Shown in pieces: positions 1,807 to 27,470 of a DNA stretch of 64,000 bases. A model generated the notes under the pieces. It ran no database searches, had not been told where the DNA came from, and saw only the letters and a program-made list of their open reading frames with translations. Position 1 is the stretch's first letter. Every line of letters starts with the position of its first letter. Position numbers and translations under genes: made by a program. This DNA comes from Eledone cirrhosa. Taxonomy: Eukaryota. The stretch covers positions 431,830,001-431,894,000 of the forward strand of contig OZ024740.1 of assembly GCA_964016885.1 (NCBI GenBank), read 5' to 3'.

Positions 1807-1865
1807 AATTAAGATAGGATGAGTATCAATAGAAATGATAATACTAAATAAGTGATAAGACAAAC

Positions 1866-2054
1866 CTCCAACAAAACCAACTGGGTTAAACTTATTATCT
1901 GTAGAATCTGTAAAACAATGTAAAGTTGGTCTGAAGGTGGGTGGTAAACTTCCTCCATTACAGGTACTTAACACAAGTTGTTTCTCCAACTCAAACCATT
2001 TCTCATTTGCAGTATCTTCCTCAGACATACAAACACCAACAACAATTGGATTTA
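1866..2054 (-). CDS. Probable internal coding exon (189 bp, phase 1-1) of an unidentified gene: xNPIVVGVCMSEEDTANEKWFELEKQLVLSTCNGGSLPPTFRPTLHCFTDSTDNKFNPVGFVG
   Basis: Acceptor tattttattctatttctAG|ta at 2056-2055 and donor gag|GTttgt at 1865. The frame is stop-free (ORF 1729..2028) with protein-like composition. The length is a multiple of 3. Confidence 0.6.
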
Positions 2055-2185
2055 CTAGAAATAGAATAAAATACTTTTATATAATATAGAATAAATAATA
2101 TAAAATCAAATACTTTTATATAATATAGAATATAGAATATGTAATAAATAATATAAAATCAAATATTTTTATATAATATATAATA

Positions 2186-2532
2186 CCCAATTGCACCTCT
2201 CAAGGCCGATGACACACGACCGTGATCTCTGGCGTCACGCAGTAATACAGAAGACCCAACTTCCCACAGGAACAAGCCGAAGCTGATTCATATAGACAAT
2301 ATGCCCCCACCCCTCCCACTGTAAAGTAGTTATGGAAGTGCCATGGGAAAAAAGCACCCAACACACTGTAAATGAGGTTGGTGTTAGGAAAGACATCCAG
2401 CTGTAGAAATCAAGCCAGAATCAGTTCACGTATGAGCAAGACAAGGACAGCCAACTGGACACTGCCCACAACAGGACAACCCGTCTAACCCATGCTATCG
2501 TGGAAGAACGGACGTAAAACGGTGATGATGAT
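2186..2532 (+). mobile_element. 5'-truncated RTE-clade LINE 3' end inserted in satellite A
   Basis: Encodes QLHLSRPMTHDRDLWRHAVIQKTQLPTGTSRS*. The 3' UTR contains ggttggtgttaggaaagacatccagctgtagaaa and the tail cggacgtaaaacggtgatgatgat. It is a direct-orientation paralogue of 489-895. Confidence 0.75.
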
Positions 2533-3796
2533 AAAATACTTTTATATAATATAGAATAAAATACTTTTATATAATATAGAATAAAATACTTTTATATAAT
2601 ATAGAATAAAATACTTTTATATAATATATAATATAGAATAAAATACTTTTATATAATATAGAATAAAATACTTTTATATAATATAGAATAAAATACTTTT
2701 ATATAATATAGAATAAAATACTTTTATATAATATAGAATAAAATACTTTTATATAATATAGAATAAAATACTTTTATATAATATAGAATAAAATACTTTT
2801 ATATAATATAGAATAAAATACTTTTATATAATATAGAATAAAATACTTTTATATAATATATAATATATAATATAGAATAAAATACTTTTATATAATATAT
2901 AATATATAATATAGAATAAAATACTTTTATATAATATATAATATATAATATAGAATAAAATACTTTTATATAATATAGAATAAAATACTTTTATATAATA
3001 TAGAATAAAATACTTTTATATAATATATAATAAAATACTTTTATATAATATAGAATAAAATACTTTTATATAATATATAATATAGAATAAAATACTTTTA
3101 TATAATATAGAACAAAATACTTTTATATAATATAGAATAAAATACTTTTATATAATATATAATATATAATATATAATAAAATACTTTTATATAATATATA
3201 ATATAGAATAAAATACTTTTATATAATATATAATATAGAATAAAATACTTTTATATAATATATAATATATAATATAGAATAAAATACTTTTATATAATAT
3301 AGAACAAAATACTTTTATATAATATAGAATAAAATACTTTTATATAATATATAATATATAATATAGAATAAAATACTTTTATATAATATATAATATATAA
3401 TATAGAATAAAATACTTTTATATAATATAGAATAAAATACTTTTATATAATATAGAATATAGAATAAAATACTTTTATATAATATATAATATATAATAAA
3501 ATACTTTTATATAATATATAATATAGAATAAAATACTTTTATATAATATATAATATATAATAAAATACTTTTATGTAATATATAATATATAATAAAATAC
3601 TTTTATATAATATATAATATAGAACAAAATACTTTTATATAATATATAATATATAATATAGAACAAAATACTTTTATATAATATATAATATAGAACAAAA
3701 TACTTTTATATAATATATAATATAGAATAAAATACTTTTATATAATATATAATATATAATATAGAATAAAATACTTTTATATAATATATAATATAT

Positions 3797-3983
3797 AATT
3801 GTTTCTACTTTAGGCACAAGGCCAGCAATTACCCAGTGCATTACTGGTACTTTATTTTATCGACCCCGTAAGGATGAAAGGCAAAGTCAACCTCGGCGGG
3901 ATTTGAACTCAGATCGTAAAGGGACGTAACTATGCTGGAAAGCATGGCGTCCGACCCTCTACCGATACTGCCAATCCACCGCC
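3797..3983 (-). mobile_element. Near full-length tRNA-derived SINE inserted in satellite A
   Basis: Minus strand reads ggcggtggatTGGCAGTATCGGtag...ctGAGTTCAAATCCcgccgaggttgactttgcctttcatcc...gccttgtgcctaaagtagaaacaatt, with A/B boxes. The 3' end is shared with 30712-30764. Confidence 0.85.
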
Positions 3984-4017
3984 CTGGTGGATTGGCAGTA
4001 TCGGTAGAGGGTCGGAC
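3949..4017. repeat. Perfect 32-bp inverted repeat with a 5-nt loop
   Basis: gtccgaccctctaccgatactgccaatccacc (3949-3980), loop gccct, then ggtggattggcagtatcggtagagggtcggac (3986-4017). Confidence 0.95.
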
Positions 4018-5897
4018 CTATTCTATATTATATATTATATAATATATAATATATAATATAGAATAAAATACTTTTATATAATATATAATATATAATATAG
4101 AATAAAATACTTTTATATAATATATAATATATAATATAGAATAAAATACTTTTATATAATATATAATATATAATATAGAATAAAATACTTTTATATAATA
4201 TATAATATATAATATAGAATAAAATACTTTTATATAATATATAATATATAATATAGAATAAAATACTTTTATATAATATATAATATAGAATAAAATACTT
4301 TTATATAATATATAATAAAATACTTTTATATAATATATAATATATAATATAGAATAAAATACTTTTATATAATATATAATATAGAATATAGAACAAAATA
4401 CTTTTATATAATATATAATATAGAATAAAATACTTTTATATAATATATAATATATAATATAGAATAAAATACTTTTATATAATATATAATATATAATATA
4501 GAATAAAATACTTTTATATAATATATAATATATAATATAGAATAAAATACTTTTATATAATATATAATATATAATATAGAATAAAATACTCTTATATAAT
4601 ATATAATATAGAATATAGAATAAAATACTTTTATATAATATATAATATATAATATAGAATAAAATACTCTTATATAATATATAATATAGAATATAGAATA
4701 AAATACTTTTATATAATATATAATATATAATATAGAATAAAATACTTTTATATAATATATAATATATAATATAGAATAAAATACTTTTATATAATATATA
4801 ATATATAATATAGAATAAAATACTCTTATATAATATATAATATATAATATAGAATAAAATACTTTTATATAATATATAATATAGAATAAAATACTTTTAT
4901 ATAATATATAATATAGAATAAAATACTTTTATATAATATATAATATATAATAAAATACTTTTATATAATATATAATATATAATATAGAATAAAATACTTT
5001 TATATAATATATAATATATAATATAGAATAAAATACTCATATAATATATAATATATAATATAGAATAAAATACTTTTATATAATATATAATATATAATAT
5101 AGAATAAAATACTTTTATATAATATATAATATAGAATAAAATATTTTTATATAATATAGAATATAGAATAAAATACTCTTATATAATATATAATATAGAA
5201 TATAGAATAAAATACTTTTATATAATATATAATATATAATATAGAATAAAATACTCTTATATAATATATAATATATAATATAGAATAAAATACTTTTATA
5301 TAATATATAATATATAATATAGAATAAAATACTTTTATATAATATAGAATAAAATACTTTTATATAATATATAATATAGAATAAAATACTCTTATATAAT
5401 ATATAATATAGAATATAGAATAAAATACTTTTATATAATATATAATATATAATATAGAATAAAATACTTTTATATAATATATAATATATAATATAGAATA
5501 AAATACTTTTATATAATATAGAATAAAATACTTTTATATAATATATAATATAGAATAAAATACTCTTATATAATATATAATATAGAATATAGAATAAAAT
5601 ACTTTTATATAATATATAATATATAATATAGAATAAAATACTCTTATATAATATATAATATATAATATAGAATAAAATACTTTTATATAATATATAATAT
5701 ATAATATAGAATAAAATACTTTTATATAATATAGAATAAAATACTTTTATATAATATATAATATAGAATAAAATACTCTTATATAATATATAATATAGAA
5801 TATAGAATAAAATACTTTTATATAATATATAATATATAATATAGAATAAAATACTTTTATATAATATATAATATATAATATAGAACAAAATACTTTT

Positions 5898-5946
5898 GAA
5901 AGAAATAAACAAAACAAACTGATACCTACATAATATAAAGAAAGCT
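5898..5946 (+). repeat. Unique 49-bp linker between satellites A and B (left arm of the large inverted repeat)
   Basis: gaaagaaataaacaaaacaaactgatacctacataatataaagaaagct, with an exact reverse complement at 14085-14133. Confidence 0.95.
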
Positions 5947-7131
5947 TAATAGATACTAGTGGTGATACTACTAATAGATACTAGTGATGATACTACTAAT
6001 AGATACTAGTGGTGATACTACTAATAGATACTAGTGGTGATACTACTAATAGATACTAGTGATGGATACTACTAATAGATACTAGTGATGGATACTACTA
6101 ATAGATACTAGTGATGATACTAATAGATACTAGTGATGATACTACTAATAGATACTAGTGATGGATACTACTAATAGATACTAGTGATGATACTACTAAT
6201 AGATACTAGTGGTGATACTACTAATAGATACTAGTGGTGATACTACTAATAGATACTAGTGGTGATACTACTAATAGATACTAGTGATAGATACTACTAA
6301 TAGATACTAGTGATAGATACTACTAATAGATACTAGTGATGGATACTACTAATAGATACTAGTGATGATACTAATAGATACTAGTGGTGATACTACTAAT
6401 AGATACTAGTGGTGATACTACTAATAGATACTAGTGATGATACTACTAATAGATACTAGTGATGGATACTACTAATAGATACTAGTGATGGATACTACTA
6501 ATAGATACTAGTGGTGATACTACTAATAGATACTAATGATGGATACTACTAATAGATACTAGTGATGGATACTACTAATAGATACTAATGATGGATACTA
6601 CTAATAGATACTAGTGATGGATACTACTAATAGATACTAGTGGTGATACTAATAGATACTAGTGGTGATACTAATAGATACTAGTGGTGATACTAATAGA
6701 TACTAGTGATGATACTACTAATAGATACTAGTGGTGATACTACTAATAGATACTAGTGATGATACTACTAATAGATACTAGTGGTGATACTACTAATAGA
6801 TACTAGTGATGATACTACTAATAGATACTAGTGATGATACTACTAATAGATACTAGTGGTGATACTACTAATAGATACTAGTGATATATACTACTAATAG
6901 ATACTACTAATAGATACTAGTGATAGATACTACTAATAGATACTACTAATAGATACTAGTGATGATACTACTAATAGATACTAGTGATGATACTACTGAT
7001 ACTAGTGATGGATACTACTAATAGATACTAGTGATGGATACTACTAATAGATACTAGTGATGGATACTACTAATAGATACTAGTGGTGATACTACTAATA
7101 GATACTAGTGATAGATACTATTAATAGATAC
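5947..7131 (+). repeat. Satellite B, forward orientation: 25/26-bp unit gatactactaatagatactagtg(gt/at/atg/ata)
   Basis: Tandem array of roughly 47 units, with ACTAGT in nearly every unit. Confidence 0.95.
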
Positions 7132-10100
7132 GAGTAGTATCCATCACTAGTATCTATTAGTAGTATCCATCACTAGTATCTATTAGTAGTATCCATCACT
7201 AGTATCTATTAGTAGTATCACCACTAGTATCTATTAGTAGTATCTATCACTAGTATCTATTAGTATCACCACTAGTATCTATTAGTAGTATCCATCACTA
7301 GTATCTATTAGTAGTATCCATCACTAGTATCTATTAGTAGTATCTATCACTAGTATCTATTAGTAGTATCATCACTAGTATCTATTAGTAGTATCCATCA
7401 CTAGTATCTATTAGTAGTATCATCACTAGTATCTATTAGTAGTATCTATCACTAGTATCTATTAGTAGTATCACCACTAGTATCTATTAGTAGTATCTAT
7501 CACTAGTATCTATTAGTAGTATCACCACTAGTATCTATTAGTAGTATCTATCACTAGTATCTATTAGTAGTATCATCACTAGTATCTATTAGTAGTATCA
7601 TCACTAGTATCTATTAGTAGTATCATCACTAGTATCTATTAGTAGTATCATCACTAGTATCTATTAGTAGTATCTATCACTAGTATCTATTAGTAGTATC
7701 ACCACTAGTATCTATTAGTAGTATCACCACTAGTATCTATTAGTAGTATCATCACTAGTATCTATTAGTAGTATCCATCACTAGTATCTATTAGTAGTAT
7801 CACCACTAGTATCTATTAGTAGTATCATCACTAGTATCTATTAGTAGTATCATCACTAGTATCTATTAGTAGTATCACCACTAGTATCTATTAGTAGTAT
7901 CATCACTAGTATCTATTAGTAGTATCACCACTAGTATCTATTAGTAGTATCACCACTAGTATCTATTAGTAGTATCTATCACTAGTATCTATTAGTAGTA
8001 TCTATCACTAGTATCTATTAGTAGTATCACCACTAGTATCTATTAGTAGTATCACCACTAGTATCTATTAGTAGTATCATCACTAGTATCTATTAGTAGT
8101 ATCATCACTAGTATCTATTAGTAGTATCATCACTAGTATCTATTAGTAGTATCACCACTAGTATCTATTAGTAGTATCATCACTAGTATCTATTAGTAGT
8201 ATCCATCACTAGTATCTATTAGTAGTATCCATCACTAGTATCTATTAGTAGTATCACCACTAGTATCTATTAGTATCATCACTACTATCTATTAGTAGTA
8301 TCTATCACTAGTATCTATTAGTATCATCACTAGTATCTATTAGTAGTATCATCACTAGTATCTATAAGTAGTATCCATCACTAGTATCTATTAGTAGTAT
8401 CCATCACTAGTATCTATTAGTATCATCACTAGTATCTATTAGTAGTATCTATCACTAGTATCTATTAGTAGTATCACCACTAGTATCTATTAGTAGTATC
8501 TATCACTAGTATCTATTAGTAGTATCACCACTAGTATCTATTAGTAGTATCTATCACTAGTATCTATTAGTATCATCACTAGTATCTATTAGTAGTATCC
8601 ATCACTAGTATCTATTAGTAGTATCTATCACTAGTATCTATTAGTATCGATCACTAGTATCTATTAGTAGTATCCATCACTAGTATCTATTAGTAGTATC
8701 TATCACTAGTATCTATTAGTATCATCACTAGTATCTATTAGTAGTATCCATCACTAGTATCTATTAGTAGTATCCATCACTAGTATCTATTAGTATCGAT
8801 CACTAGTATCTATTAGTAGTATCATCACTAGTATCTATAAGTAGTATCCATCACTAGTATCTATTAGTAGTATCACCACTAGTATCTATTAGTAGTATCC
8901 ATCACTAGTATCTATTAGTATCATCACTAGTATCTATTAGTAGTATCCATCACTAGTATCTATTAGTATCATCACTAGTATCTATTAGTAGTATCCATCA
9001 CTAGTATCTATTAGTATCACCACTAGTATCTATTAGTAGTATCATCACTAGTATCTATTAGTAGTATCTATCACTAGTATCTATTAGTAGTATCTATCAC
9101 TAGTATCTATTAGTAGTATCATCACTAGTATCTATTAGTAGTATCTATCACTAGTATCTATTAGTAGTATCCATCACTAGTATCTATTAGTAGTATCCAT
9201 CACTAGTATCTATTAGTATCCATCACTAGTATCTATTAGTAGTATCCATCACTAGTATCTATTAGTAGTATCATCACTAGTATCTATTAGTAGTATCTAT
9301 CACTAGTATCTATTAGTATCCATCACTAGTATCTATTAGTAGTATCATCACTAGTATCTATTAGTAGTATCTATCACTAGTATCTATTAGTAGTATCCAT
9401 CACTAGTATCTATTAGTAGTATCATCACTAGTATCTATTAGTAGTATCTATCACTAGTATCTATTAGTATCCATCACTAGTATCTATTAGTAGTATCTAT
9501 CACTAGTATCTATTAGTAGTATCCATCACTAGTATCTATTAGTATCCATCACTAGTATCTATTAGTAGTATCCATCACTAGTATCTATTAGTAGTATCTA
9601 TCACTAGTATCTATTAGTAGTATCCATCACTAGTATCTATTAGTAGTATCCATCACTAGTATCTATTAGTAGTATCCATCACTAGTATCTATTAGTAGTA
9701 TCGATCACTAGTATCTATTAGTAGTATCCATCACTAGTATCTATTAGTAGTATCATCACTAGTATCTATTAGTATCCATCACTAGTATCTATTAGTAGTA
9801 TCATCACTAGTATCTATTAGTAGTATCTATCACTAGTATCTATTAGTATCCATCACTAGTATCTATTAGTAGTATCATCACTAGTATCTATTAGTAGTAT
9901 CTATCACTAGTATCTATTAGTAGTATCCATCACTAGTATCTATTAGTAGTATCTATCACTAGTATCTATTAGTAGTATCCATCACTAGTATCTATTAGTA
10001 GTATCCATCACTAGTATCTATTAGTAGTATTCATCACTAGTATCTATTAGTAGTATCCATCACTAGTATCTATTAGTAGTATCCATCACTAGTATCTATT

Positions 10101-11438
10101 AGTAGTATCCATCACTAGTATCTATTAGTAGTATCCATCACTAGTATCTATTAGTAGTATCCATCACTAGTATCTATTAGTAGTATCCATCACTAGTATC
10201 TATTAGTAGTATCTATCACTAGTATCTATTAGTAGTATCTATCACTAGTATCTATTAGTAGTATCCATCACTAGTATCTATTAGTAGTATCCATCACTAG
10301 TATCTATTAGTAGTATCTATCACTAGTATCTATTAGTAGTATCCATCACTAGTATCTATTAGTAGTATCACCACTAGTATCTATTAGTAGTATCTATCAC
10401 TAGTATCTATTAGTATCATCACTAGTATCTATTAGTAGTATCCATCACTAGTATCTATTAGTAGTATCTATCACTAGTATCTATTAGTATCATCACTAGT
10501 ATCTATTAGTAGTATCCATCACTAGTATCTATTAGTAGTATCTATCACTAGTATCTATTAGTATCATCACTAGTATCTATTAGTAGTATCCATCACTAGT
10601 ATCTATTAGTATCATCACTAGTATCTATTAGTAGTATCCATCACTAGTATCTATTAGTAGTATCTATCACTAGTATCTATTAGTAGTATCTATCACTAGT
10701 ATCTATTAGTAGTTTCACCACTAGTATCTATTAGTATCACCACTAGTATCTATTAGTAGTATCCATCACTAGTATCTATTAGTAGTATCCATCACTAGTA
10801 TCTATTAGTATCATCACTAGTATCTATTAGTAGTATCCATCACTAGTATCTATTAGTAGTATCCATCACTAGTATCTATTAGTAGTATCGATCACTAGTA
10901 TCTATTAGTATCATCACTAGTATCTATTAGTAGTATCCATCACTAGTATCTATTAGTAGTATCTATCACTAGTATCTATTAGTAGTATCCATCACTAGTA
11001 TCTATTAGTAGTATCTATCACTAGTATCTATTAGTAGTATCATCACTAGTATCTATTAGTATCATCACTAGTATCTATTAGTAGTATCCATCACTAGTAT
11101 CTATTAGTAGTATCCATCACTAGTATCTATTAGTAGTATCCATCACTAGTATCTATTAGTAGTATCACCACTAGTATCTATTAGTAGTATCACCACTAGT
11201 ATCTATTAGTAGTATCACCACTAGTATCTATTAGTAGTATCCATCACTAGTATCTATTAGTAGTATCCATCACTAGTATCTATTAGTAGTATCACCACTA
11301 GTATCTATTAGTAGTATCACCACTAGTATCTATTAGTAGTATCCATCACTAGTATCTATTAGTAGTATCCATCACTAGTATCTATTAGTAGTATCCATCA
11401 CTAGTATCTATTAGTAGTATCACCACTAGTATCTATTA
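7132..11438 (-). repeat. Satellite B, reverse orientation (cactagtatctattagtagtatc...)
   Basis: Reverse complement of the 5947-7131 unit. The orientation flips at ttaatagatac|gagtagtatc (7131/7132). Roughly 170 units. Confidence 0.95.
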
Positions 11439-13672
11439 TAGAATTCCCTGTACTGTGACCAAGGGCGTAGTCACGCTAGTGAGGAAGGACGAGAACAAGG
11501 GGGACGAAATAAGTAACTTCAGGCCCATAACACTGCTAAATACAGAGTTACAGATTTTGGCCAAGGTGCTAGCAAAGAGGTTGGCGCTTGTCGTGGGCAA
11601 CCTGGTGGGAGATGCGCAGACATGCGCTATCCCGTCCAGGTCCATCCATGACAACCTCCACCTCATGCGATACATCATAGAGAGGGTTGGGAACGAACCC
11701 GGCTTTGGTGGGGCTCTGATCAACTTGGATCAATCTAAGGCGTTCGATAGGGTCGACCATGGTTACCTGGATGCGGTGCTAGCGGCGGCAGGCTTCGGAC
11801 CCGTTTTCAGGGGCTGGATCACTGCTATGCACAGCAGCCGCATCTGCTCTAGGGTCAAGGTGAACGGCTACCTCTCGGAGCCGTTCAAAATCGCGCGGTC
11901 CATCCGACAAGGGTGCCCTCTCTCCTCCCTTCTGTATGTGTTGACTCTCGAGCCACTACTGCGGAAGTTGGAGTTGTTGCAGGGCATCCCTTTGGAACCG
12001 GGATTGCGGAAAGCGGTGTCGGCCTACGCCGATGACGTGACAGTAATGGTGTCGACGGCCTCCGAAATCGAGGCGGTCGGCACCTTACTGGAGGAGTACG
12101 AAAAGTTCACAGGGGCTAAGCTGAACCGGGACAAGTCGATCGGTTTGCAACTCGGCACGTGGAGGGGGCAGACCGATGCCCTCCGATGGCGTCGTCGGAC
12201 GCTGGACGGAGGGCCCGGTGAAGTTACTCGGGGTCTGGTTCGGACCGGACCTCCAGGTGGAGAAAAACTGGGCGGAGGTTACGAACAGGGTGTTTGCACT
12301 GACCCAGAAGTGGGCCAGTTGCAAACTATCCCTGAAAGGTCGGGCGGAGGTGGCGAACACCTACATAGCGTCCGTCATCTACTACCGCCTGACCGTAGTG
12401 CCCTGCCCAAGGGAAACCCTCACCAAGATGGAGCGCGCGCTCTTCCAATTCCTTTGGAAGAGGCGGGCTCCTATGGTGAGGAGATCCATCTGCTGTCAAC
12501 ACCCTTCGAAAGGAGGGCTGGGGATGCCGTGGCTAATGATGCGTAAACACGCATTAAGGCTACGGCACCTCTACGTATTCCTCACCGGACAACCGGTGTG
12601 GGCCTCGTTTGTGAGACGAACCTTTCCCAGACTCGTCTCACTCACCGAGCTGCAATCCTGGGTCAAGCAAAGACCGAGAAAACTGGGCGCTTGGCACACT
12701 GAGTGTGCCCAGGCGCTCACCGCCCTCTGGCAGGCGGATCCGGTTATCAGTGGAGACTCCACCGCAACATTCTATAGAGGGCTGGTACGCAGCAGGTGCG
12801 ACGACGCCCTCGGAGAAGCCCTAGACATGGAGGAGGACGAACTGGCCAGCCTGTTCGGTAGGACATTCAGCCCGGGACCTATGGACAACTTCCAGAAGTC
12901 CCTGGCCTGGCAGTGCTACCGAGGGGCTTTACCCGTTCGAGAAAGGCTCTACAGACACGGGCGCCCGGGTAGGGACCCCGCCAAAAAGATCTGTCCCAGA
13001 TGCGTGTGCGACGAGGAAACCGTTGCACACGCATTGGTACACTGCTCGGGCGTAGCCGATCTGTGGGGCTATGTCGAACAACTGCTGTCAAGGGTGGGAC
13101 CGATCCGGTTGACCACCGAGTCTATTGAAATGATCAAGCCGCCTCCCCCCTTCAAAGATGAAGCAGAGGCGGTGTTTCTGTGCGTAATAGCCATGGCGAA
13201 AGAGGTTGTATGGTGGACGCGTCTGAAAGGACTGAGGTCAGACACCTTTCTCTCTGGCCAACAACTGGTCCGTTTCTTCCGATATCATTTCGGAAGAAGG
13301 ATCAGGATGGAGAGAGAGGTGCTGCACCCCAGCCGTTTCTATGAAAGATGGGTGAAAGTGGCGAGAATGGCCCGTGTGAATGGGCCTTCACTCTACATCA
13401 GACTATAGGTGAGGAAGATGAAAGACCAAGGGAGCACCCCTTCTCTGTGCTCCTGAGGAGAAGGGTTGCACACTTTTTTCGGGGGTGTGTGCGACCCCCC
13501 AAGGCGCCTCCTCTCTATTGAGGATTTTGTTAAAAATTTTATTTTTTGTTATATCTTATTTTATTTTTATATTTTGTTATTGCCTCCTCCTTATTGAGGA
13601 CGCCTTTTTGTGTAAACTCCCCCCTTTGTACTTGTCCCACTTTTGATGCCCTAGTGGCAAATAAAAGAAACT
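11439..13672 (+). mobile_element. 5'-truncated non-LTR retrotransposon, L1/Tx1 clade, with 9-bp TSD tatctatta
   Basis: Contains an RT and C-terminal zinc knuckle ORF and a ~260-bp 3' UTR ending aataaaagaaac. tatctatta is duplicated at 11430-11438 and 13673-13681 in phase with the satellite. ORF1 and the endonuclease are missing because the element begins at the start of the RT domain. Confidence 0.92.
11440..13408 (+). pseudogene. LINE ORF2 fragment (reverse transcriptase plus zf-RVT-like CCHC knuckle), split by one +1 frameshift
   Basis: Motifs FRPITLLNT, LDQSKAFDRVDH, RQGCPLSSLLY, YADD, LSLKGR and CPRC-x8-H-x4-C are present. Removing one G from the G5 run at 12164-12168 joins ORFs 11455..12546 and 12176..13408 (LGTWRGRPMPSDG). 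Confidence 0.92.
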
Positions 13673-14084
13673 TATCTATTAGTAGTATCACCACTAGTAT
13701 CTATTAGTAGTATCACCACTAGTATCTATTAGTAGTATCACCACTAGTATCTATTAGTAGTATCACCACTAGTATCTATTAGTAGTATCACCACTAGTAT
13801 CTATTAGTAGTATCCATCACTAGTATCTATTAGTAGTATCCATCACTAGTATCTATTAGTAGTATCCATCACTAGTATCTATTAGTAGTATCACCACTAG
13901 TATCTATTAGTAGTATCACCACTAGTATCTATTAGTAGTATTACCACTAGTATCTATTAGTAGTATCACCACTAGTATCTATTAGTAGTATCACCACTAG
14001 TATCTATTAGTAGTATCACCACTAGTATCTATTAGTAGTATCACCACTAGTATCTATTAGTAGTATCACCACTAGTATCTATTA
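13673..14084 (-). repeat. Satellite B, reverse orientation, resumed after the LINE
   Basis: About 16 units, mostly the caccactagtatctattagtagtat variant. Confidence 0.95.
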
Positions 14085-14192
14085 AGCTTTCTTTATATTA
14101 TGTAGGTATCAGTTTGTTTTGTTTATTTCTTTCAAAAGTATTTTATTCTATATTCTATATTCTATATTATATATTATATAAGAGTATTTTAT
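14085..14192 (-). repeat. Inverted 49-bp linker plus the start of inverted satellite A (right arm of the fold-back)
   Basis: 14085-14133 is the reverse complement of 5898-5946. It is followed by aaaagtattttattctatatt... up to the gap. Confidence 0.95.
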
Positions 14193-14392
14193 NNNNNNNN
14201 NNNNNNNNNNNNNNNNNNNNNNNNNNNNNNNNNNNNNNNNNNNNNNNNNNNNNNNNNNNNNNNNNNNNNNNNNNNNNNNNNNNNNNNNNNNNNNNNNNNN
14301 NNNNNNNNNNNNNNNNNNNNNNNNNNNNNNNNNNNNNNNNNNNNNNNNNNNNNNNNNNNNNNNNNNNNNNNNNNNNNNNNNNNNNNNNNNNN
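14193..14392. other. Assembly gap (200 N, true size unknown)
   Basis: Run of N with a round length typical of scaffolding joins. Confidence 0.99.
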
Positions 14393-17300
14393 GCCACTGC
14401 TACACTACACTACACTACTACATAGCCACTGCTACACTACACTACTACATAGCCACTGTCTACACTACACTACTACATAGCCACTGCTACACTACACTAC
14501 ACTACTACATAGCCACTGCTACACTACACTACACTACTACATAGCCACTGCTACACTACACTACTACATAGCCACTGCTACACTACACTACTACATAGCC
14601 ACTGCTACACTACACTACTACATAGCCACTGCTACACTACACTACACTACTACATAGCCACTGCTACACTACACTACACTACTACATAGCCACTGCTACA
14701 CTACACTACTACATAGCCACTGTTACACTACACTACTACATAGCCACTGCTACACTACACTACACTACTACATAGCCACTGCTACACTACACTACACTAC
14801 TACATAGCCACTGCTACACTACACTACTACATAGCCACTGCTACACTACACTACTACATAGCTACTGCTACACTACACTACTACATAGCCACTGCTACAC
14901 TACACTACTACATAGCCACTGCTACACTACACTACACTACTACATAGCCACTGCTACACTACACTACTACATAGCACTGTTACACTACACTACTACATAG
15001 CCACTGCTACACTACACTACACTACTACATAGCCACTGCTACACTACACTACACTACTACATAGCCACTGCTACACTACACTACTACATAGCCACTGCTA
15101 CACTACACTACTACATAGCCACTGCTACACTACACTACTACATAGCCACTGCTACACTACACTACTACATAGCCACTGCTACACTACACTACTACATAGC
15201 CACTGCTACACTACACTACACTACTACATAGCCACTGCTACACTACACTAGTACATAGCCACTGCTACACTACACTACTACATAGCCACTGTTACACTAC
15301 ACTACTACATAGCCACTGCTACACTACACTACACTACTACATAGCCACTGCTACACTACACTACTACATAGCCACTGCTACACTACACTACACTACTACA
15401 TAGCCACTGCTACACTACACTACTACATAGCCACTGCTACACTACACTACTACATAGCCACTGCTACACTACACTACACTACTACATAGCCACTGATACA
15501 CTACACTACACTACTACATAGCCACTGCTACACTACACTACACTACTACATAGCCACTGCTACACTACACTACACTACTACATAGCCACTGCTACACTAC
15601 ACTACTACATAGCCACTGCTACACTACACTACACTACTACATAGCCACTGCTACACTACACTACTACATAGCCACTGCTACACTACACTACTACATAGCC
15701 ACTGCTACACTACACTACTACATAGCCACTGCTACACTACACTACTACTACATAGCCACTGCTACACTACACTACTACTACATAGCCACTGCTACACTAC
15801 ACTACTACATAGCCACTGCTACACTACACTACTAGTACATAGCCACTGCTACACTACACTACTACATAGCCACTGCTACACTACACTACTACATAGCCAC
15901 TGCTACACTACACTACTACTACATAGCCACTGCTACACTACACTACTACTACATAGCCACTGCTACACTACACTACTACATAGCCACTGCTACACTACAC
16001 TACTAGTACATAGCCACTGCTACACTACACTACTACATAGCCACTGCTACACTACACTACTACATAGCCACTGCTACACTACACTACTACATAGCCACTG
16101 TTACACTACACTAGTACATAGCCACTGCTACACTACACTACTACATAGCCACTGTTACACTACACTACTACATAGCCACTGCTACACTACACTACTACAT
16201 AGCCACTGCTACACTACACTACTACATAGCCACTGCTACACTACACTACTACATAGCCACTGCTACACTACACTACTAGTACATAGCCACTGCTACACTA
16301 CACTACTACATAGCTACTGCTACACTACACTACTACATAGCCACTGCTACACTACACTACTACATAGCCACTGCTACACTACACTACTAGTACATAGCCA
16401 CTGCTACACTACACTACTACATAGCCACTGCTACACTACACTACTACATAGCCACTGCTACACTACACTACACTACTACATAGCCACTGCTACACTACAC
16501 TACTACATAGCCACTGCTACACTACACTACTACATAGCCACTGCTACACTACACTACACTACTACATAGCCACTGCTACACTACACTACACTACTACATA
16601 GCCACTGCTACACTACACTACTACATAGCCACTGCTTCACTACACTACTACATAGCCACTGCTACACTACACTACACTACTACATAGCCACTGCTACACT
16701 ACACTACACTACTACATAGCCACTGCTACATAGCCACTGCTACACTACACTACACTACTACATAGCCACTGCTACACTACACTACTACATAGCCACTGCT
16801 ACACTACACTACTACATAGCCACTGCTACACTACACTACTACATAGCCACTGCTACACTACACTACTACATAGCCACTGCTACACTACACTACTAGTACA
16901 TAGCCACTGCTACACTACACTACTACATAGCTACTGCTACACTACACTACTACATAGCCACTGCTACACTACACTACTACATAGCCACTGCTACACTACA
17001 CTACTAGTACATAGCCACTGCTACACTACACTAACTACATAGCCACTGCTACACTACACTACTACATAGCCACTGCTACACTACACTACACATCTACATA
17101 GCCCTGCTACCTACACTAGCCACTGCTACACTACACTACTACATAGCCACTGCTACACTACACTACTACATAGCCACTGCTACACTACACTACACTACTA
17201 CATAGCCACTGCTACACTACACTACACTACTACATAGCCACTGCTACACTACACTACTACATAGCCACTGCTACACTACACTACTACATAGCCACTGCTA

Positions 17301-20300
17301 CACTACACTACACTACTACATAGCCACTGCTACACTACACTACACTACTACATAGCCACTGCTACACTACACTACTACATAGCCACTGCTACACTACACT
17401 ACACTACTACATAGCCACTGCTACACTACACTACTACATAGCCACTGCTACACTACACTACTACATAGCCACTGCTACACTACACTACTACATAGCCACT
17501 GCTACACTACACTACTACATAGCCACTGCTAACAACTACACTACTACATAGCCACTGCTACACTACACTACTAGTACATAGCCACTGCTACACTACACTA
17601 CTACATAGCTACTGCTACACTACACTACTACATAGCTACTGCTACACTACACTACTACATAGCCACTGCTACACTACACTACTACATAGCCACTGCTACA
17701 CTACACTACTAGTACATAGCCACTGCTACACTACACTACTACATAGCTACTGCTACACTACACTACTACATAGCCACTGCTACACTACACTACTACATAG
17801 CTACTGCTACACTACACTACTACATAGCCACTGCTACACTACACTACTACATAGCCACTGCTACACTACACTACTACATAGCCACTGCTACACTACACTA
17901 CTAGTACATAGCCACTGCTACACTACACTACTACATAGCCACTGCTACACTACACTACTACATAGCCACTGCTACACTACACTACACTACTACATAGCCA
18001 CTGCTACACTACACTACACTACTACATAGCCACTGCTACACTACACTACTACATAGCCACTGCTACACTACACTACTACATAGCCACTGCTACACTACAC
18101 TACTACATAGCCACTGCTACACTACACTACTACATAGCCACTGCTACACTACACTACTAGTACATAGCCACTGCTACACTACACTACTACATAGCCACTG
18201 CTACACTACACTACTACATAGCCACTGCTACATAGCCACTGCTACACTACACTACACTACTACATAGCCACTGCTACACTACACTACTACATAGCCACTG
18301 CTACACTACACTACTACATAGCCACTGCTACACTACACTACTACATAGCCACTGTTACACTACACTACTACATAGCCACTGCTACACTACACTACTACAT
18401 AGCCACTGCTACACTACACTACTACATAGCCACTGCTACACTACACTACTACATAGCCACTGCTACACTACACTACTACATAGCCACTGCTACACTACAC
18501 TACTACATAGCCACTGCTATACTACACTACTAGTACATAGCCACTGCTACACTACACTACTACATAGCCACTGCTACACTACACTACTAGTACATAGCCA
18601 CTGCTACACTACACTACTACATAGCCACTGCTACACTACACTACTACATAGCCACTGCTACATAGCCACTGCTACACTACACTACACTACTACATAGCCA
18701 CTGCTACACTACACTACTACATAGCCACTGCTACACTACACTACTACATAGCCACTGCTACACTACACTACTACATAGCCACTGTTACACTACACTACTA
18801 CATAGCCACTGCTACACTACACTACTACATAGCCACTGCTACACTACACTACTACATAGCCACTGCTACACTACACTACTACATAGCCACTGCTACACTA
18901 CACTACTACATAGCCACTGCTACACTACACTACTACATAGCCACTGCTACACTACACTCCACTACTACATAGCCACTGCTACACTACACTACTACATAGC
19001 CACTGCTACACTACACTACACTACTACATAGCCACTGCTACACTACACTACTACATAGCCACTGCTACACTACACTACACTACTACATAGCCACTGCTAC
19101 ACTACACTACACTACTACATAGCCACTGCTACACTACACTCCACTACTACATAGCCACTGCTACACTACACTACACTACTACATAGCCACTGCTACACTA
19201 CACTCCACTACTACATAGCCACTGCTACACTACACTACACTACTACATAGCCACTGCTACACTACACTACACTACTACATAGCCACTGCTACACTACACT
19301 CCACTACTACATAGCCACTGCTACACTACACTACACTACTACATAGCCACTGCTACACTACACTACACTACTACATAGCCACTGCTACACTACACTACAC
19401 TACTACATAGCCACTGCTACACTACACTCCACTACTACATAGCCACTGCTACACTACACTACACTACTACATAGCCACTGCTACACTACACTCCACTACT
19501 ACATAGCCACTGCTACACTACACTACTACATAGCCACTGCTACACTACACTACACTACTACATAGCCACTACACTACTACATAGCCACTGCTACACTACA
19601 CTCCACTACTACATAGCCACTGCTACACTACACTACTACATAGCCACTGCTACACTACACTCCACTACTACATAGCCACTGCTACACTACACTACTACAT
19701 AGCCACTGCTACACTACACTACACTACTACATAGCCACTGCTACACTACACTACACTACTACATAGCCACTGCTACACTACACTACACTACTACATAGCC
19801 ACTGCTACACTACACTACTACATAGCCACTGCTACACTACACTACACTACTACATAGCCACTGCTACACTACACTACTACATAGCCACTGCTACACTACA
19901 CTACTACATAGCCACTGCTACACTACACTACTACATAGCCACTGCTACACTACACTACTACATAGCCACTGCTACACTACACTACTACATAGCCACTGCT
20001 ACACTACACTACTACATAGCCACTGCTACACTACACTACTACATAGCCACTGCTACACTACACTACTACATAGCCACTGCTACACTACACTACTACATAG
20101 CCACTGCTACACTACACTACTACATAGCCACTGCTACACTTCACTACTACATAGCCACTGCTACACTACACTCCACTACTACATAGCTACTGCTACACTA
20201 CACTACTACATAGCCACTGTTACACTACACTACTACATAGCCACTGCTACACTACACTACACTACTACATAGCCACTGCTACACTACACTACTACATAGC

Positions 20301-23300
20301 CACTGCTACACTACACTACTACATAGCCACTGTTACACTACACTACTACATAGCCACTGCTACACTACACTACACTACTACATAGCCACTGCTACACTAC
20401 ACTACTACATAGCCACTGCTACACTACACTACTACATAGCCACTGCTACACTACACTACACTACTACATAGCCACTGCTACACTACACTACACTACTACA
20501 TAGCCACTGCTACACTACACTACTACATAGACACTGCTACACTTCACTACTACATAGCCACTGCTACACTACACTACTACATAGCCACTGCTACACTACA
20601 CTACACTACTACATAGCCACTGCTACACTACACTACACTACTACATAGCCACTGTTACACTACACTACACTACTACATAGCCACTGTTACACTACACTAC
20701 TACATAGCCACTGCTACACTACACTACACTACTACATAGCCACTGCTACACTACACTACTACATAGCCACTGCTACACTACACTACTACATAGCCACTGC
20801 TACACTACACTACTACATAGCTACTGCTACACTACACTACTACATAGCCACTGCTACACTACACTACTACATAGCCAATGCTACACTACACTACACTACT
20901 ACATAGCCACTGCTACACTACACTACACTACTACATAGCCACTGCTACACTACACTACTACATAGCCACTGTTACACTACACTACTACATAGCCACTGCT
21001 ACACTACACTACACTACTACATAGCCACTGCTACACTACACTACACTACTACATAGCCACTGCTACACTACACTACTACATAGCCACTGCTACACTACAC
21101 TACTACATAGCCACTGCTACACTACACTACTACATAGCCACTGCTACACTACACTACTACATAGCCACTGCTACACTACACTACTACATAGCCACTGCTA
21201 CACTACACTACACTACTACATAGCCACTGCTACACTACACTACTACATAGCCACTGCTACACTACACTACTACATAGCCACTGCTACACTACACTACACT
21301 ACTACATAGCCACTGCTACACTACACTACTACATAGCCACTGTTACACTACACTACTACATAGCCACTGCTACACTACACTACACTACTACATAGCCACT
21401 GCTACACTACACTACTACATAGCCACTGCTACACTACACTACTACATAGCCACTGCTACACTACACTACTACATAGCCACTGTTACACTACACTACTACA
21501 TAGCCACTGCTACACTACACTACACTACTACATAGCCACTGCTACACTACACTACACTACTACATAGCCACTGCTACACTACACTACTACATAGCCACTG
21601 TTACACTACACTACTACATAGCCACTGCTACACTACACTACACTACTACATAGCCACTGCTACACTACACTACACTACTACATAGCCACTGCTACACTAC
21701 ACTACTACATAGCCACTGCTACACTACACTACTACATAGCTACTGCTACACTACACTACTACATAGCCACTGCTACACTACACTACTACATAGCCACTGC
21801 TACACTACACTACACTACTACATAGCCACTGCTACACTACACTACACTACTACATAGCCACTGCTACACTACACTACTACATAGCCACTGCTACACTACA
21901 CTACTACATAGCCACTGCTACACTACACTACTACATAGCCACTGCTACACTACACTACTACATAGCCACTGCTACACTACACTACTACATAGCCACTGCT
22001 ACACTACACTACACTACTACATAGCCACTGCTACACTACACTACACTACTACATAGCCACTGCTACACTACACTACACTAGTACATAGCCACTGCTACAC
22101 TACACTACTACATAGCCACTGTTACACTACACTACTACATAGCCACTGCTACACTACACTACACTACTACATAGCCACTGCTACACTACACTACTACATA
22201 GCCACTGCTACACTACACTACACTACTACATAGCCACTGCTACACTACACTACTACATAGCCACTGCTACACTACACTACTACATAGCCACTGCTACACT
22301 ACACTACTACATAGCCACTGTTACACTACACTACTACATAGCCACTGCTACACTACACTACACTACTACATAGCCACTGCTACACTACACTACACTACTA
22401 CATAGCCACTGCTACACTACACTACTACATAGCCACTGCTACACTACACTACACTACTACATAGCCACTGCTACACTACACTACACTACTACATAGCCAC
22501 TGCTACACTACACTACTACATAGCCACTGCTACACTACACTACTACATAGCCACTGCTACACTACACTACTACATAGCCACTGCTACACTACACTACTAC
22601 TACATAGCCACTGCTACACTACACTACTACTACATAGCCACTGCTACACTACACTACTACATAGCCACTGCTACACTACACTACTAGTACATAGCCACTG
22701 CTACACTACACTACTACATAGCCACTGCTACACTACACTACTACATAGCCACTGCTACACTACACTACTACTACATAGCCACTGCTACACTACACTACTA
22801 CTACATAGCCACTGCTACACTACACTACTACATAGCCACTGCTACACTACACTACTAGTACATAGCCACTGCTACACTACACTACTACATAGCCACTGCT
22901 ACACTACACTACTACATAGCCACTGTTACACTACACTACTACATAGCCACTGCTACACTACACTACTACATAGCCACTGCTACACTACACTACTACATAG
23001 CCACTGCTACACTACACTACTACATAGCCACTGCTACACTACACTAGTACATAGCCACTGCTACACTACACTACTACATAGCCACTGCTACACTACGCTA
23101 CTACATAGCCACTGCTACACTACACTACTACATAGCCACTGCTACACTACACTACTACATAGCCACTGCTACACTACACTACTACATAGCCACTGCTCCA
23201 CTACACTACACTACTACATAGCCACTGCTACACTACACTACACTACTACATAGCCACTGCTACACTGCACTACTACATAGCCACTGCTACACTACACTAG

Positions 23301-24814
23301 TACATAGCCACTGCTACACTACACTACTACATTGCCACTGCTACACTACACTACTAGTACATAGCCACTGCTACACTACACTAGTACATAGCCACTGCTA
23401 CACTACACTACTACATAGCTACTGCTACACTACTACTACATAGCCACTGCTACACTACACTACTACATAGCCACTGCTACACTACACTACTACATAGCCA
23501 CTGCTACACTACACTAGTACATAGCCACTGCTACACTACACTACTACATAGCCACTGCTACACTACACTACTACATAGCCACTGCTACACTACACTACTA
23601 CATAGCCACTGCTACACTACACTACTACATAGCCACTGCTACACTACACTACTACATAGCCACTGCTACACTACACTACTACATAGCCACTGCTACACTA
23701 CACTACTACATAGCCACTGCTCCACTACACTACACTACTACATAGCCACTGCTACACTACACTACACTACTACATAGCCACTGCTACACTGCACTACTAC
23801 ATAGCCACTGCTACACTACACTAGTACATAGCCACTGCTACACTACACTACTACATTGCCACTGCTACACTACACTACTAGTACATAGCCACTGCTACAC
23901 TACACTAGTACATAGCCACTGCTACACTACACTACTACATAGCTACTGCTACACTACTACTACATAGCCACTGCTACACTACACTACTACATAGCCACTG
24001 CTACACTACACTACTACATAGCCACTGCTACACTACACTAGTACATAGCCACTGCTACACTACACTACTACATAGCCACTGCTACACTACACTACTACAT
24101 AGCCACTGCTACACTACACTACTACATAGCCACTGCTACACTACACTACTACATAGCCACTGCTACACTACACTACTACATAGCCACTGCTACACTACAC
24201 TACTACATAGCCACTGCTCCACTACACTACACTACTACATAGCCACTGCTACACTACACTACACTACTACATAGCCACTGCTACACTGCACTACTACATA
24301 GCCACTGCTACACTACACTAGTACATAGCCACTGCTACACTACACTACTACATTGCCACTGCTACACTACACTACTAGTACATAGCCACTGCTACACTAC
24401 ACTAGTACATAGCCACTGCTACACTACACTACTACATAGCTACTGCTACACTACTACTACATAGCCACTGCTACACTACACTACTACATAGCCACTGCTA
24501 CACTACACTACTACATAGCCACTGCTACACTACACTAGTACATAGCCACTGCTACACTACACTACTACATAGCCACTGCTACACTACACTACTACATAGC
24601 CACTGCTACACTACACTACTACATAGCCACTGCTACACTTCACTACTACATAGCCACTGCTACACTACACTACTACATAGCCATTGCTACACTACACTAC
24701 TACATAGCCACTGCTACACTACACTACTACATAGCCACTGCTACACGACACTACTACACTACTACATAGACACTACTACTTAGACACTACTACACTACTA
24801 CTTAGATACTACTA
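14393..24814 (+). repeat. Satellite C: 27-bp unit gccactgctacactacactactacata, with a 32-bp variant carrying an extra ctaca
   Basis: About 10.4-kb tandem array with a strongly C/A-rich + strand. It degenerates at 24745-24814. Confidence 0.97.
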
Positions 24815-25554: not shown

Positions 25555-25691
25555 AAACAAATCCAAGCTCTTCAGAAAGAAAATCAAATGTTAGAATCTG
25601 GAGATTTAGGTACGACATATCTAAAACAGAAGACATTTACTGCTTCTGAGCAACTAGCAACAGTGGCGGCATCTGCTGAACAGTCTTTGAG
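25555..25691 (+). CDS. ENTR1: Penultimate coding exon of an ENTR1/SDCCAG3 homologue (endosome-associated trafficking regulator 1): KQIQALQKENQMLESGDLGTTYLKQKTFTASEQLATVAASAEQSLR
   Basis: Acceptor ttttatcttttattactAG and donor gag|GTGAGT. The 137-bp exon is phase 0 to phase 2 and encodes a coiled coil. It resembles recalled human ENTR1 QVSNFQRENEALRCG...VVKQNADVALQNLRVVMNSAQASI. Confidence 0.8.
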
Positions 25692-25825
25692 GTGAGTCTT
25701 ATTTATAACTTGGGAATAAACCAACATACCTCAGACATGTGCTTTTGAGGTAAGTCCTATATATTCATATATTTATGTCTCTTAACTTTTATTTAGGATG
25801 AAATAAACTAAACCAACATACTACA

Positions 25826-27230: not shown

Positions 27231-27364
27231 TGTCAATACCAATCTATTACTTTTCTCATTAATATTGACTATTTAAAAATATAGATTCTTAAACATTGTT
27301 GGAGAGGGGTATTTAATTAGACATATTCAATGTTTGTAATATATATTTGTTTTTATTATACCAG

Positions 27365-27470
27365 ACAATTGCTGAGTGGTGTTGATTCTTTGAGATTGCT
27401 GTCGGCAGTTTTAGCATCAGCAGATAAAGTTGAAGAAGGTAGTTGTGATAACCAGAAAGGAAATAGCTGA
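27365..27470 (+). CDS. ENTR1: Last coding exon of the ENTR1/SDCCAG3 homologue: (R)QLLSGVDSLRLLSAVLASADKVEEGSCDNQKGNS*
   Basis: Acceptor tttgtttttattataccAG. Phase 2 joins the 25555-25691 exon in frame, with TGA at 27468-27470. It resembles the recalled ENTR1 C-terminus QLVSGAETLNLVAEILKSIDRISEV. Confidence 0.8.

What the first reader, a model, noticed from the sequence alone, without database searches (positions are those of the whole stretch)
5898..14192. Multi-kilobase fold-back built from two satellites and a unique linker
Seen: the order is satA(+), 49-bp linker, satB(+), a flip at 7131/7132, satB(-) carrying the LINE, the exact inverted linker, then satA(-) running into the gap. The arms are not copies of each other. 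Satellite B is 1.2 kb on the left and about 4.7 kb on the right, the variant order differs, the flank reads gaacaaaa versus gaataaaa, and only the right arm has the LINE. This argues against a simple fold-back read artefact. Inference: it is either an inverted duplication (fold-back or breakage-fusion-bridge type) whose arms then expanded independently, or a Foldback-like transposon with modular tandem-repeat inverted termini, comparable in layout to Drosophila FB elements.
Basis: partly seen in the sequence, partly recalled or inferred. Interest (0 to 1): 0.75.

Follow-up and report, generated by a model that had tools for sequence, protein, structure and literature searches.

The report
Inverted minisatellite duplication in TRAPPC8 intron
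Two repeat arrays and a short unique spacer appear twice, back to back, inside an intron of an octopus trafficking gene at a broken spot of the genome assembly; they are not a jumping gene and are likely an ordinary one-off DNA-copying accident, though an assembly stitching error is not excluded.

Summary
The layout is confirmed. It is not a Foldback transposon: the 49-bp linker occurs exactly twice in the 3.0-Gb assembly and satellite B only here. It lies in an intron of TRAPPC8 (91% identical to the Octopus vulgaris protein), at a damaged spot of the assembly: exons for residues ~267-764 were not found, and the next ~760 kb is flipped. The only other satellite-A match is a contig end on C2 (79 bp behind a 3.75-kb Helitron) that abuts the window's end in register, so the contig was likely mis-joined to C2 through a Helitron and cut here. 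Arms that differ in unit order, a young LINE and irregular units at the flip rule out a simple mirror-read artefact. Best reading (0.6): a real local inverted duplication by template switching, later made asymmetric. Main rival (0.2): two alleles stitched head to head. No independent read over the flip was found. The scan has noted satellite fold-backs elsewhere in this genome. Ordinary kind; low interest.

The parts
1864..2055 (-). TRAPPC8 exon (residues 765-828 of the O. vulgaris protein P0001); the structure lies in the intron 5' of it
   Evidence: (PF24545)
2531..5897 (+). Satellite A, left array (AT-rich, 25-39-bp units), interrupted by a SINE near 3797-4017
5898..5946 (+). 49-bp unique linker, left copy
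5947..7131 (+). Satellite B, left arm (about 47 units of 22-26 bp); irregular units cluster in the last ~250 bp before the flip
7120..7136 (.). Flip junction: no spacer and no adapter; one base at 7132 fits neither arm (a 4-nt TAGT microhomology with one mismatch), and a point change 12 bp upstream
7133..11438 (-). Satellite B, right arm, inner part (about 168 units)
11439..13672 (+). Young 5'-truncated L1/Tx1-type LINE (RVT_1 and zf-RVT, one frameshift), 9-bp target duplication TATCTATTA; 3' end 97-100% identical to 39 other scored copies
13673..14084 (-). Satellite B, right arm, outer part (16 units)
14085..14133 (-). 49-bp linker, exact inverted copy
14134..14192 (-). Satellite A, right copy, 59 bp up to the contig end; likely continues as 79 bp of satA plus a 3,751-bp Helitron now at a contig end on C2 (C2:391311682-391315509)
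14193..14392 (.). 200-N scaffold gap; the sequence right of it is not the true neighbour
14393..24794 (+). Satellite C, start of the ~760-kb block that is mis-oriented in the scaffold (not part of the fold-back)

Best explanation
The structure is a single-locus mirror arrangement of two minisatellites and a linker in a TRAPPC8 intron, likely a real local inverted duplication that arose once by template switching. Inferred steps: a nascent strand near the end of the satB array switched to the opposite strand at the short TAGT/ACTAGT symmetry present in every unit, copied back through satB, the linker and into satA, and rejoined the intron further on (that second junction is not in the assembly). 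The arms then drifted apart by ordinary minisatellite slippage, small deletions next to the centre, and two young insertions in the right arm (a LINE at its preferred TATCT target and likely a Helitron in satA), which would make the hairpin less perfect and more stable. It would be spliced out with the intron and has no sign of a function. The contig ends here likely because the assembler ran from that Helitron into another copy on C2 and the scaffolder cut the false join.
For: Single locus. Intron of TRAPPC8. Arms are homologous but not copies. No adapter or spacer at the flip, and irregular units next to it (13-bp half units, a 4-bp deletion, point changes; 5 of the last 10 full left units, counted by eye, no test run) look like real mutation, not read error. 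The LINE is young and sits at the motif that follows 20 of 24 other copies. The C2 tip is the only other satA match in the genome, lies at a gap, points the right way and abuts the window tip in register (4-7% of random satA joins do). That Helitron (A|TC...CTAG|T, 3,751 bp) has satA on one side and a TA-type run on the other, whereas copy L166 has matching flanks: the false join is therefore best placed at the Helitron, which needs only one assembly error. With reads ending inside the Helitron, 7-11 kb from the flip, a typical long read would span the flip and both arms (inference). Terminal fold-backs are not a general habit of this assembly: 0 of 20 unplaced contig starts, one TA-rich case unclear.
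Against: No independent read or contig over the flip has been seen, so the junction rests on the assembly alone. The site is a demonstrated trouble spot: exons for residues ~267-764 not found by three queries, neighbouring block flipped, and a likely inter-chromosome mis-join. The differences between the arms (unit order, one young LINE, one young Helitron, identical 49-bp linker) are also what two alleles of a minisatellite would show. The return junction is unseen. The register test is only p about 0.05.
Confidence: 0.6

Rival explanations
1. Assembly chimera of two alleles: the left arm is one haplotype, the right arm (with LINE and Helitron) is the other, joined head to head at or just after the flip where reads of both haplotypes die out.
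For: Both arms begin at an identical linker and differ as minisatellite alleles do; both insertions are young enough to be polymorphic; the place is a coverage and scaffolding failure; satB units differ by only 1-3 bases, so inexact overlaps are possible.
Against: Needs two false joins (at satB and at the Helitron) and still needs a molecule with a flip, since two same-sense array ends cannot overlap; reads of the second allele should have crossed the 3.75-kb Helitron into the shared left flank.
Confidence: 0.2
2. The right arm is a real dispersed copy on C2 (Helitron, satA tail, linker, satB) and the false join is in satB, tying the C1 and C2 arrays together.
For: The C2 contig runs at least 394 kb without a gap or a TRAPPC8 exon up to the Helitron and satA; a 3.75-kb repeat is normally spanned by long reads.
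Against: satA abuts the Helitron's 5'-TC end, while flank capture is by read-through of the 3' end (PMC4778049, passages); none of 14 sampled copies shares a flank with another; it too needs a flip-bearing molecule.
Confidence: 0.08
3. A real complex rearrangement in the sequenced animal: fold-back in TRAPPC8, junction to C2 by ectopic recombination between Helitron copies, and loss of the middle exons on that haplotype.
For: It would explain the in-register C1/C2 continuity, the mismatched Helitron flanks and the missing exons in one event chain.
Against: It would fuse 432 Mb of C1 with 391 Mb of C2 and break a conserved single-copy gene; the scaffolding placed the two contigs on different chromosomes; the diverged arms imply an old haplotype.
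Confidence: 0.05
4. A single chimeric or fold-back sequencing read.
Against: A folded-back molecule gives identical arms; these differ from the second unit on and by a 2.2-kb LINE. No adapter at the centre. Fold-back reads were virtually absent from HiFi data in PMC12338684 (passages; three PacBio samples).
Confidence: 0.05
5. A Foldback-like transposon with modular tandem-repeat inverted termini.
For: Layout of inverted modular repeats resembles Tetris/FB (PMC4079207, passages).
Against: No dispersed copies of linker or satB; no terminal domain, no middle domain, no flanking target duplication seen.
Confidence: 0.02

Closest known systems
Template-switch inverted duplications / eroded inverted triplications (ODIRA, FoSTeS/MMBIR; PMC10766186 passages; small inverted triplications, PMC13334657 abstract and outline)
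   Same: Local back-to-back copy with a junction at a few bases of inverted microhomology; palindromic junction later made asymmetric.
   Different: Only two linker copies are in the assembly (a third could hide in the missing sequence); kilobase arms made of minisatellites, against ~150-bp segments with a ~30-bp spacer in SITs; second junction unseen.
Tribolium macro-dyad satellite symmetries (PMC13081366, passages)
   Same: Kilobase satellite sub-arrays of unequal length meeting head to head, with degenerate units at the inversion site.
   Different: Those sites are conserved in thousands of copies in pericentromeric arrays; this is one site in one intron and includes a unique linker.
Foldback transposons (FB, Tetris, Galileo; PMC4079207 passages)
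   Same: Inverted arms built of tandem-repeat modules of unequal length.
   Different: Not dispersed, no shared terminal domain, no middle domain, no 8-10-bp target duplication shown.
Fold-back read artefacts (PMC12338684 passages) and repeat-induced contig mis-joins cut by Hi-C scaffolders (PMC9848053 passages)
   Same: Sits at a contig end next to a 200-N gap; the end looks like a scaffolder's cut of a mis-join through a young Helitron.
   Different: Arms are not copies of one molecule and there is no adapter, so the flip itself is not the classic read artefact.

Membership tests
Foldback transposon (FB/Tetris type) | Long inverted arms containing tandem-repeat modules | tested here: met
Foldback transposon (FB/Tetris type) | Dispersed family of copies sharing the terminal sequences | tested here: not met
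   Linker 2 matches, both here; satB 70 of 70 here; satA 46 of 48 here, the other 2 at one C2 contig tip
Foldback transposon (FB/Tetris type) | 8-10-bp target-site duplication outside the arms | not testable with these tools
   The right outer end is not in the assembly (gap at 14193; likely Helitron after 138 bp of satA)
Foldback transposon (FB/Tetris type) | Middle domain between the arms | tested here: not met
   Arms abut with one odd base at 7132
Inverted triplication (ODIRA / SIT) | Three copies, direct-inverted-direct | tested here: inconclusive
   Two linker copies in the assembly; the sequence where a third would lie is missing
Inverted triplication (ODIRA / SIT) | Junction at short inverted microhomology | tested here: inconclusive
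   4-nt TAGT overlap with one mismatch, read from the sequence; too short to be telling
Breakage-fusion-bridge fold-back | Long inverted duplication of flanking unique DNA with loss of the distal arm | tested here: not met
   Left flank 880-2075 full-length once in the assembly (40 of 4410 candidates scored); distal 11 Mb of C1 present; a collapsed copy cannot be excluded without read depth
Fold-back read artefact | Arms are copies of one molecule, often with adapter at the centre | tested here: not met
   Arms differ in unit order and by a LINE; no insert at the centre
Tribolium-type macro-dyad satellite | Same inversion site repeated many times in long arrays | tested here: not met
   One flip; satB confined to this locus
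Real genomic junction (any kind) | Independent reads across the flip; doubled depth over the linker | tested here: inconclusive
   Only contigs of public runs could be laid; raw long reads and depth not available
Helitron (element at the C2 tip) | 5'-TC and CTRR-3' ends between A and T, no target duplication (PMC4778049 passages) | tested here: met
   C2 copy and 5 of 6 fetched copies read A|TC...CTAG|T, 3,741-3,787 bp; the sixth was not resolved

The most novel reading that the evidence does not exclude
The assembly caught a real rearranged haplotype: a minisatellite fold-back inside TRAPPC8 that is fused to chromosome C2 by recombination between two young Helitron copies, with the middle ~500 codons of the gene lost, making intronic minisatellite hairpins plus Helitrons a source of chromosome-scale rearrangement in octopods.
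Probability: 0.05. Interest if true: 0.6.

Novelty: new member of a known kind. Interest (0 to 1): 0.2.

Why it matters
If real, it is one more example of a local inverted duplication surviving in an intron after its arms became asymmetric, with the order of events unusually readable (flip, repeat turnover, LINE, Helitron). Its practical value is for the assembly: TRAPPC8 is split and incomplete here, a ~760-kb block is inverted, and a contig appears to have been mis-joined to C2 through a Helitron. It does not point to a new element or mechanism.

Tried and rejected
Public runs: shares of 0.4-0.64 cannot be read as holding the fold-back, since the multi-copy LINE supplies 2,204 of 3,142 distinct 31-mers. 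Laying 4 of the 17 listed runs (3 from one sample, all contigs) on 7060-7210: satB words were covered on both sides, no contig covered 7120-7137 although 42 31-mers are unique to the flip; the tool states that such a hole proves nothing, and the sample may be another animal. Depth of satB words was about 7-14 per assembled copy against 8.5-9.3 for two longer contigs; this leans to both arms per haplotype, but contig depth is no copy number, so it is not counted. I first took the perfect 203-bp palindrome at the facing contig end as a sign of artefactual fold-backs at both ends; rejected: its centre occurs at 273 places, and 10 of 10 inspected copies lie away from gaps, most with a 221-bp short arm. 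Rfam gave no hammerhead match there, only sub-threshold hairpin families. Missing TRAPPC8 exons are not on the C2 contig within 394 kb nor in 432.586-432.770 Mb of C1. Pfam had no match for two plus-strand exon peptides right of the gap. No previous gap was found on C1 back to 431.61 Mb, so the cut position could not be tested against round contig lengths. A planned unit-order alignment of the arms and a significance test on irregular units were not run; polarity along the arms and the clustering of irregular units therefore remain untested impressions. Literature searches for false inverted duplications at hifiasm contig ends gave one unrelated paper. The stretch 431.974-432.570 Mb was not read, so further gaps inside the flipped block are possible.

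Full report
Observation. The perfect mirror is short: the linker plus 11 bp outward and 40 bp inward. The arms use the same six common unit types but in different order; the longest shared run, 6 units, is reached by 32 of 500 shuffles. The flip has no spacer and no adapter; one base fits neither arm, within a possible 4-nt TAGT overlap, and half units, a 4-bp deletion and point changes cluster in the last ten left units (5 of 10, counted by eye; not tested).

Not a transposon. In the 3.0-Gb own genome the linker has two matches, both here; a 28-base satB motif has 70 matches, all here; a 36-base satA word has 48, of which 46 are here and 2 at one place on C2. The left flank is found full-length once. 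Foldback elements as described for Tetris (PMC4079207, passages) are dispersed and have a terminal domain, a middle domain and 8-10-bp target duplications; none is shown here.

Context. The flanking exons belong to TRAPPC8 (Pfam; 91% identity to an Octopus vulgaris protein), so the animal is an octopod and the structure is intronic. Residues 765-1454 map to the minus strand left of the gap, residues 1-266 to the plus strand 640-750 kb to the right. Residues ~267-764 were not found by the whole protein (stricter first look), by residues 405-763 alone or by family PF12739 (it covers residues 12-583). At the next gap found (C1:432604120) satellite C resumes in the opposite orientation. Turning the ~760-kb block round restores both the gene order and satellite C, so the block is mis-oriented and the DNA right of the window's gap is not the true neighbour.

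Why the contig ends here. The two C2 matches are 79 bp of satA running into another 200-N gap. That tip points the right way and abuts the reverse complement of the window's tip in register, which 4-7% of random satA joins do. Behind it lies a 3,751-bp element with Helitron ends, A|TC...CTAG|T (criteria from PMC4778049, passages), whose end has 123 exact matches and which is 98-99% identical to six fetched copies. Its flanks do not match each other (satA against a TA-type run), and 394 kb of C2 upstream hold no gap and no TRAPPC8 exon. The simplest account, inferred, is that a Helitron sits in the right satA 138 bp from the linker, that the assembler crossed from it into a copy on C2, and that the scaffolder cut the false join (such cuts are described in PMC9848053, passages; 3 of 20 sampled unplaced contigs are exactly 1,000 or 2,000 bp). 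Because satA abuts the 5' end, capture by 3' read-through does not explain it.

The LINE. It is 5'-truncated, has RVT_1 and zf-RVT matches, one frameshift and a 9-bp target duplication. Its 3' end is 97-100% identical in all 40 scored places, and 20 of 24 other copies are followed by TATCT, a motif in every reversed satB unit. It is a young passenger at a preferred target. The Tx1 label rests on recall of the clade's features; microsatellite-targeting Tx1 families are described in PMC4494074 (passages), which list other repeat units.

Real or stitched. A mirror read cannot give arms that differ by a LINE, and such reads were virtually absent from HiFi data in PMC12338684 (passages). Terminal fold-backs were seen in 0 of 20 unplaced contig starts, one TA-rich case unclear, and 1 of 64 non-TA arrays in 703 kb flips, this one. 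The perfect palindrome at the facing contig end turned out to belong to a 273-copy family found away from gaps and is no evidence of artefact. A real duplication needs one assembly error (at the Helitron); two stitched alleles need two, and still a molecule with a flip. Against the real reading: no independent read over the flip was seen, the arms differ as alleles would, and the second junction is missing.

Mechanism and comparison. Most likely (0.6) a one-off template switch near the end of satB copied back through the linker into satA and rejoined the intron; slippage, small central deletions and two insertions then eroded the symmetry, as proposed for palindromic junctions of inverted copy-number variants (PMC10766186, passages). 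It works like a template-switch inverted duplication; membership as an inverted triplication (PMC13334657, abstract and outline) is open because a third linker could lie in the missing DNA. It resembles Tribolium macro-dyads (PMC13081366, passages) in form but is a single site. Earlier notes of this scan report other satellite flips in this genome; they are unchecked leads. Supplements were not consulted.

Verdict. Observation confirmed; transposon reading rejected; likely an ordinary local inverted duplication at a flawed spot of the assembly. Interest 0.2.

Noticed in passing
G000 C1:431844393-432604119 (window 14393 onward): A ~760-kb block is mis-oriented: TRAPPC8 5' exons are on the plus strand while 3' exons are on the minus strand, and satellite C resumes reversed after the next gap; TRAPPC8 residues ~267-764 were not found in the assembly.
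   Followed up: yes
L106:682-4510 (C2:391311682-391315509): 3,751-bp non-autonomous Helitron-type element with a mirrored copy of its CTAG end about 0.9 kb inside and an internal SINE; at least 123 copies of its 5' end; here it joins a TA-type flank to satellite A at a contig end.
   Followed up: partly
L030:3714-4119 (C1:432603714-432604119) and L092-L101: A dispersed spacer-less palindrome family: centre at 273 places, usually a ~405-bp element plus a 221-bp inverted copy in TA runs, folded at a natural 8-bp palindrome. A hammerhead-like motif is read from recall; Rfam gave no hammerhead match. Probably a Penelope-related retrozyme type (PMC8557442 seen as search listing only).
   Followed up: partly
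window 11439-13672 and L068-L091: Young LINE family whose 3' ends are followed by TATCT in 20 of 24 other copies (3 in TA runs, 1 in a TACC run); a possible (TATC)n-targeting Tx1-type family. Only 3' flanks were seen, so target and element tail are not separated except here, where the target duplication shows the motif comes from the target.
   Followed up: partly
window 3949-4065: The SINE in satellite A ends in a perfect 32-bp hairpin with a 5-base loop (3949-4017), followed at once by a 23-bp inverted piece of satA (4019-4065): a miniature fold-back in the same array.
   Followed up: partly
window 25555-25692 and 27363-27467 (+): Two likely 3' exons of another gene whose 5' part should lie beyond satellite C; resemble the end of ENTR1/SDCCAG3 from recall only, no Pfam match.
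   Followed up: no
window 31036-64000 and L011-L018; L003-L008: Very large locus arrays nearby: a 38-bp array of at least 113 kb, and 71-, 62- and 52-bp arrays of 21, 6 and 27 kb inside TRAPPC8 introns.
   Followed up: no
L009:676-3963 (+) and L009:8939-L010:2235 (+): An apparently intact 1,096-codon LINE ORF and a 1,024-codon gypsy-type ORF with ~223-bp direct repeats in TRAPPC8 introns.
   Followed up: no
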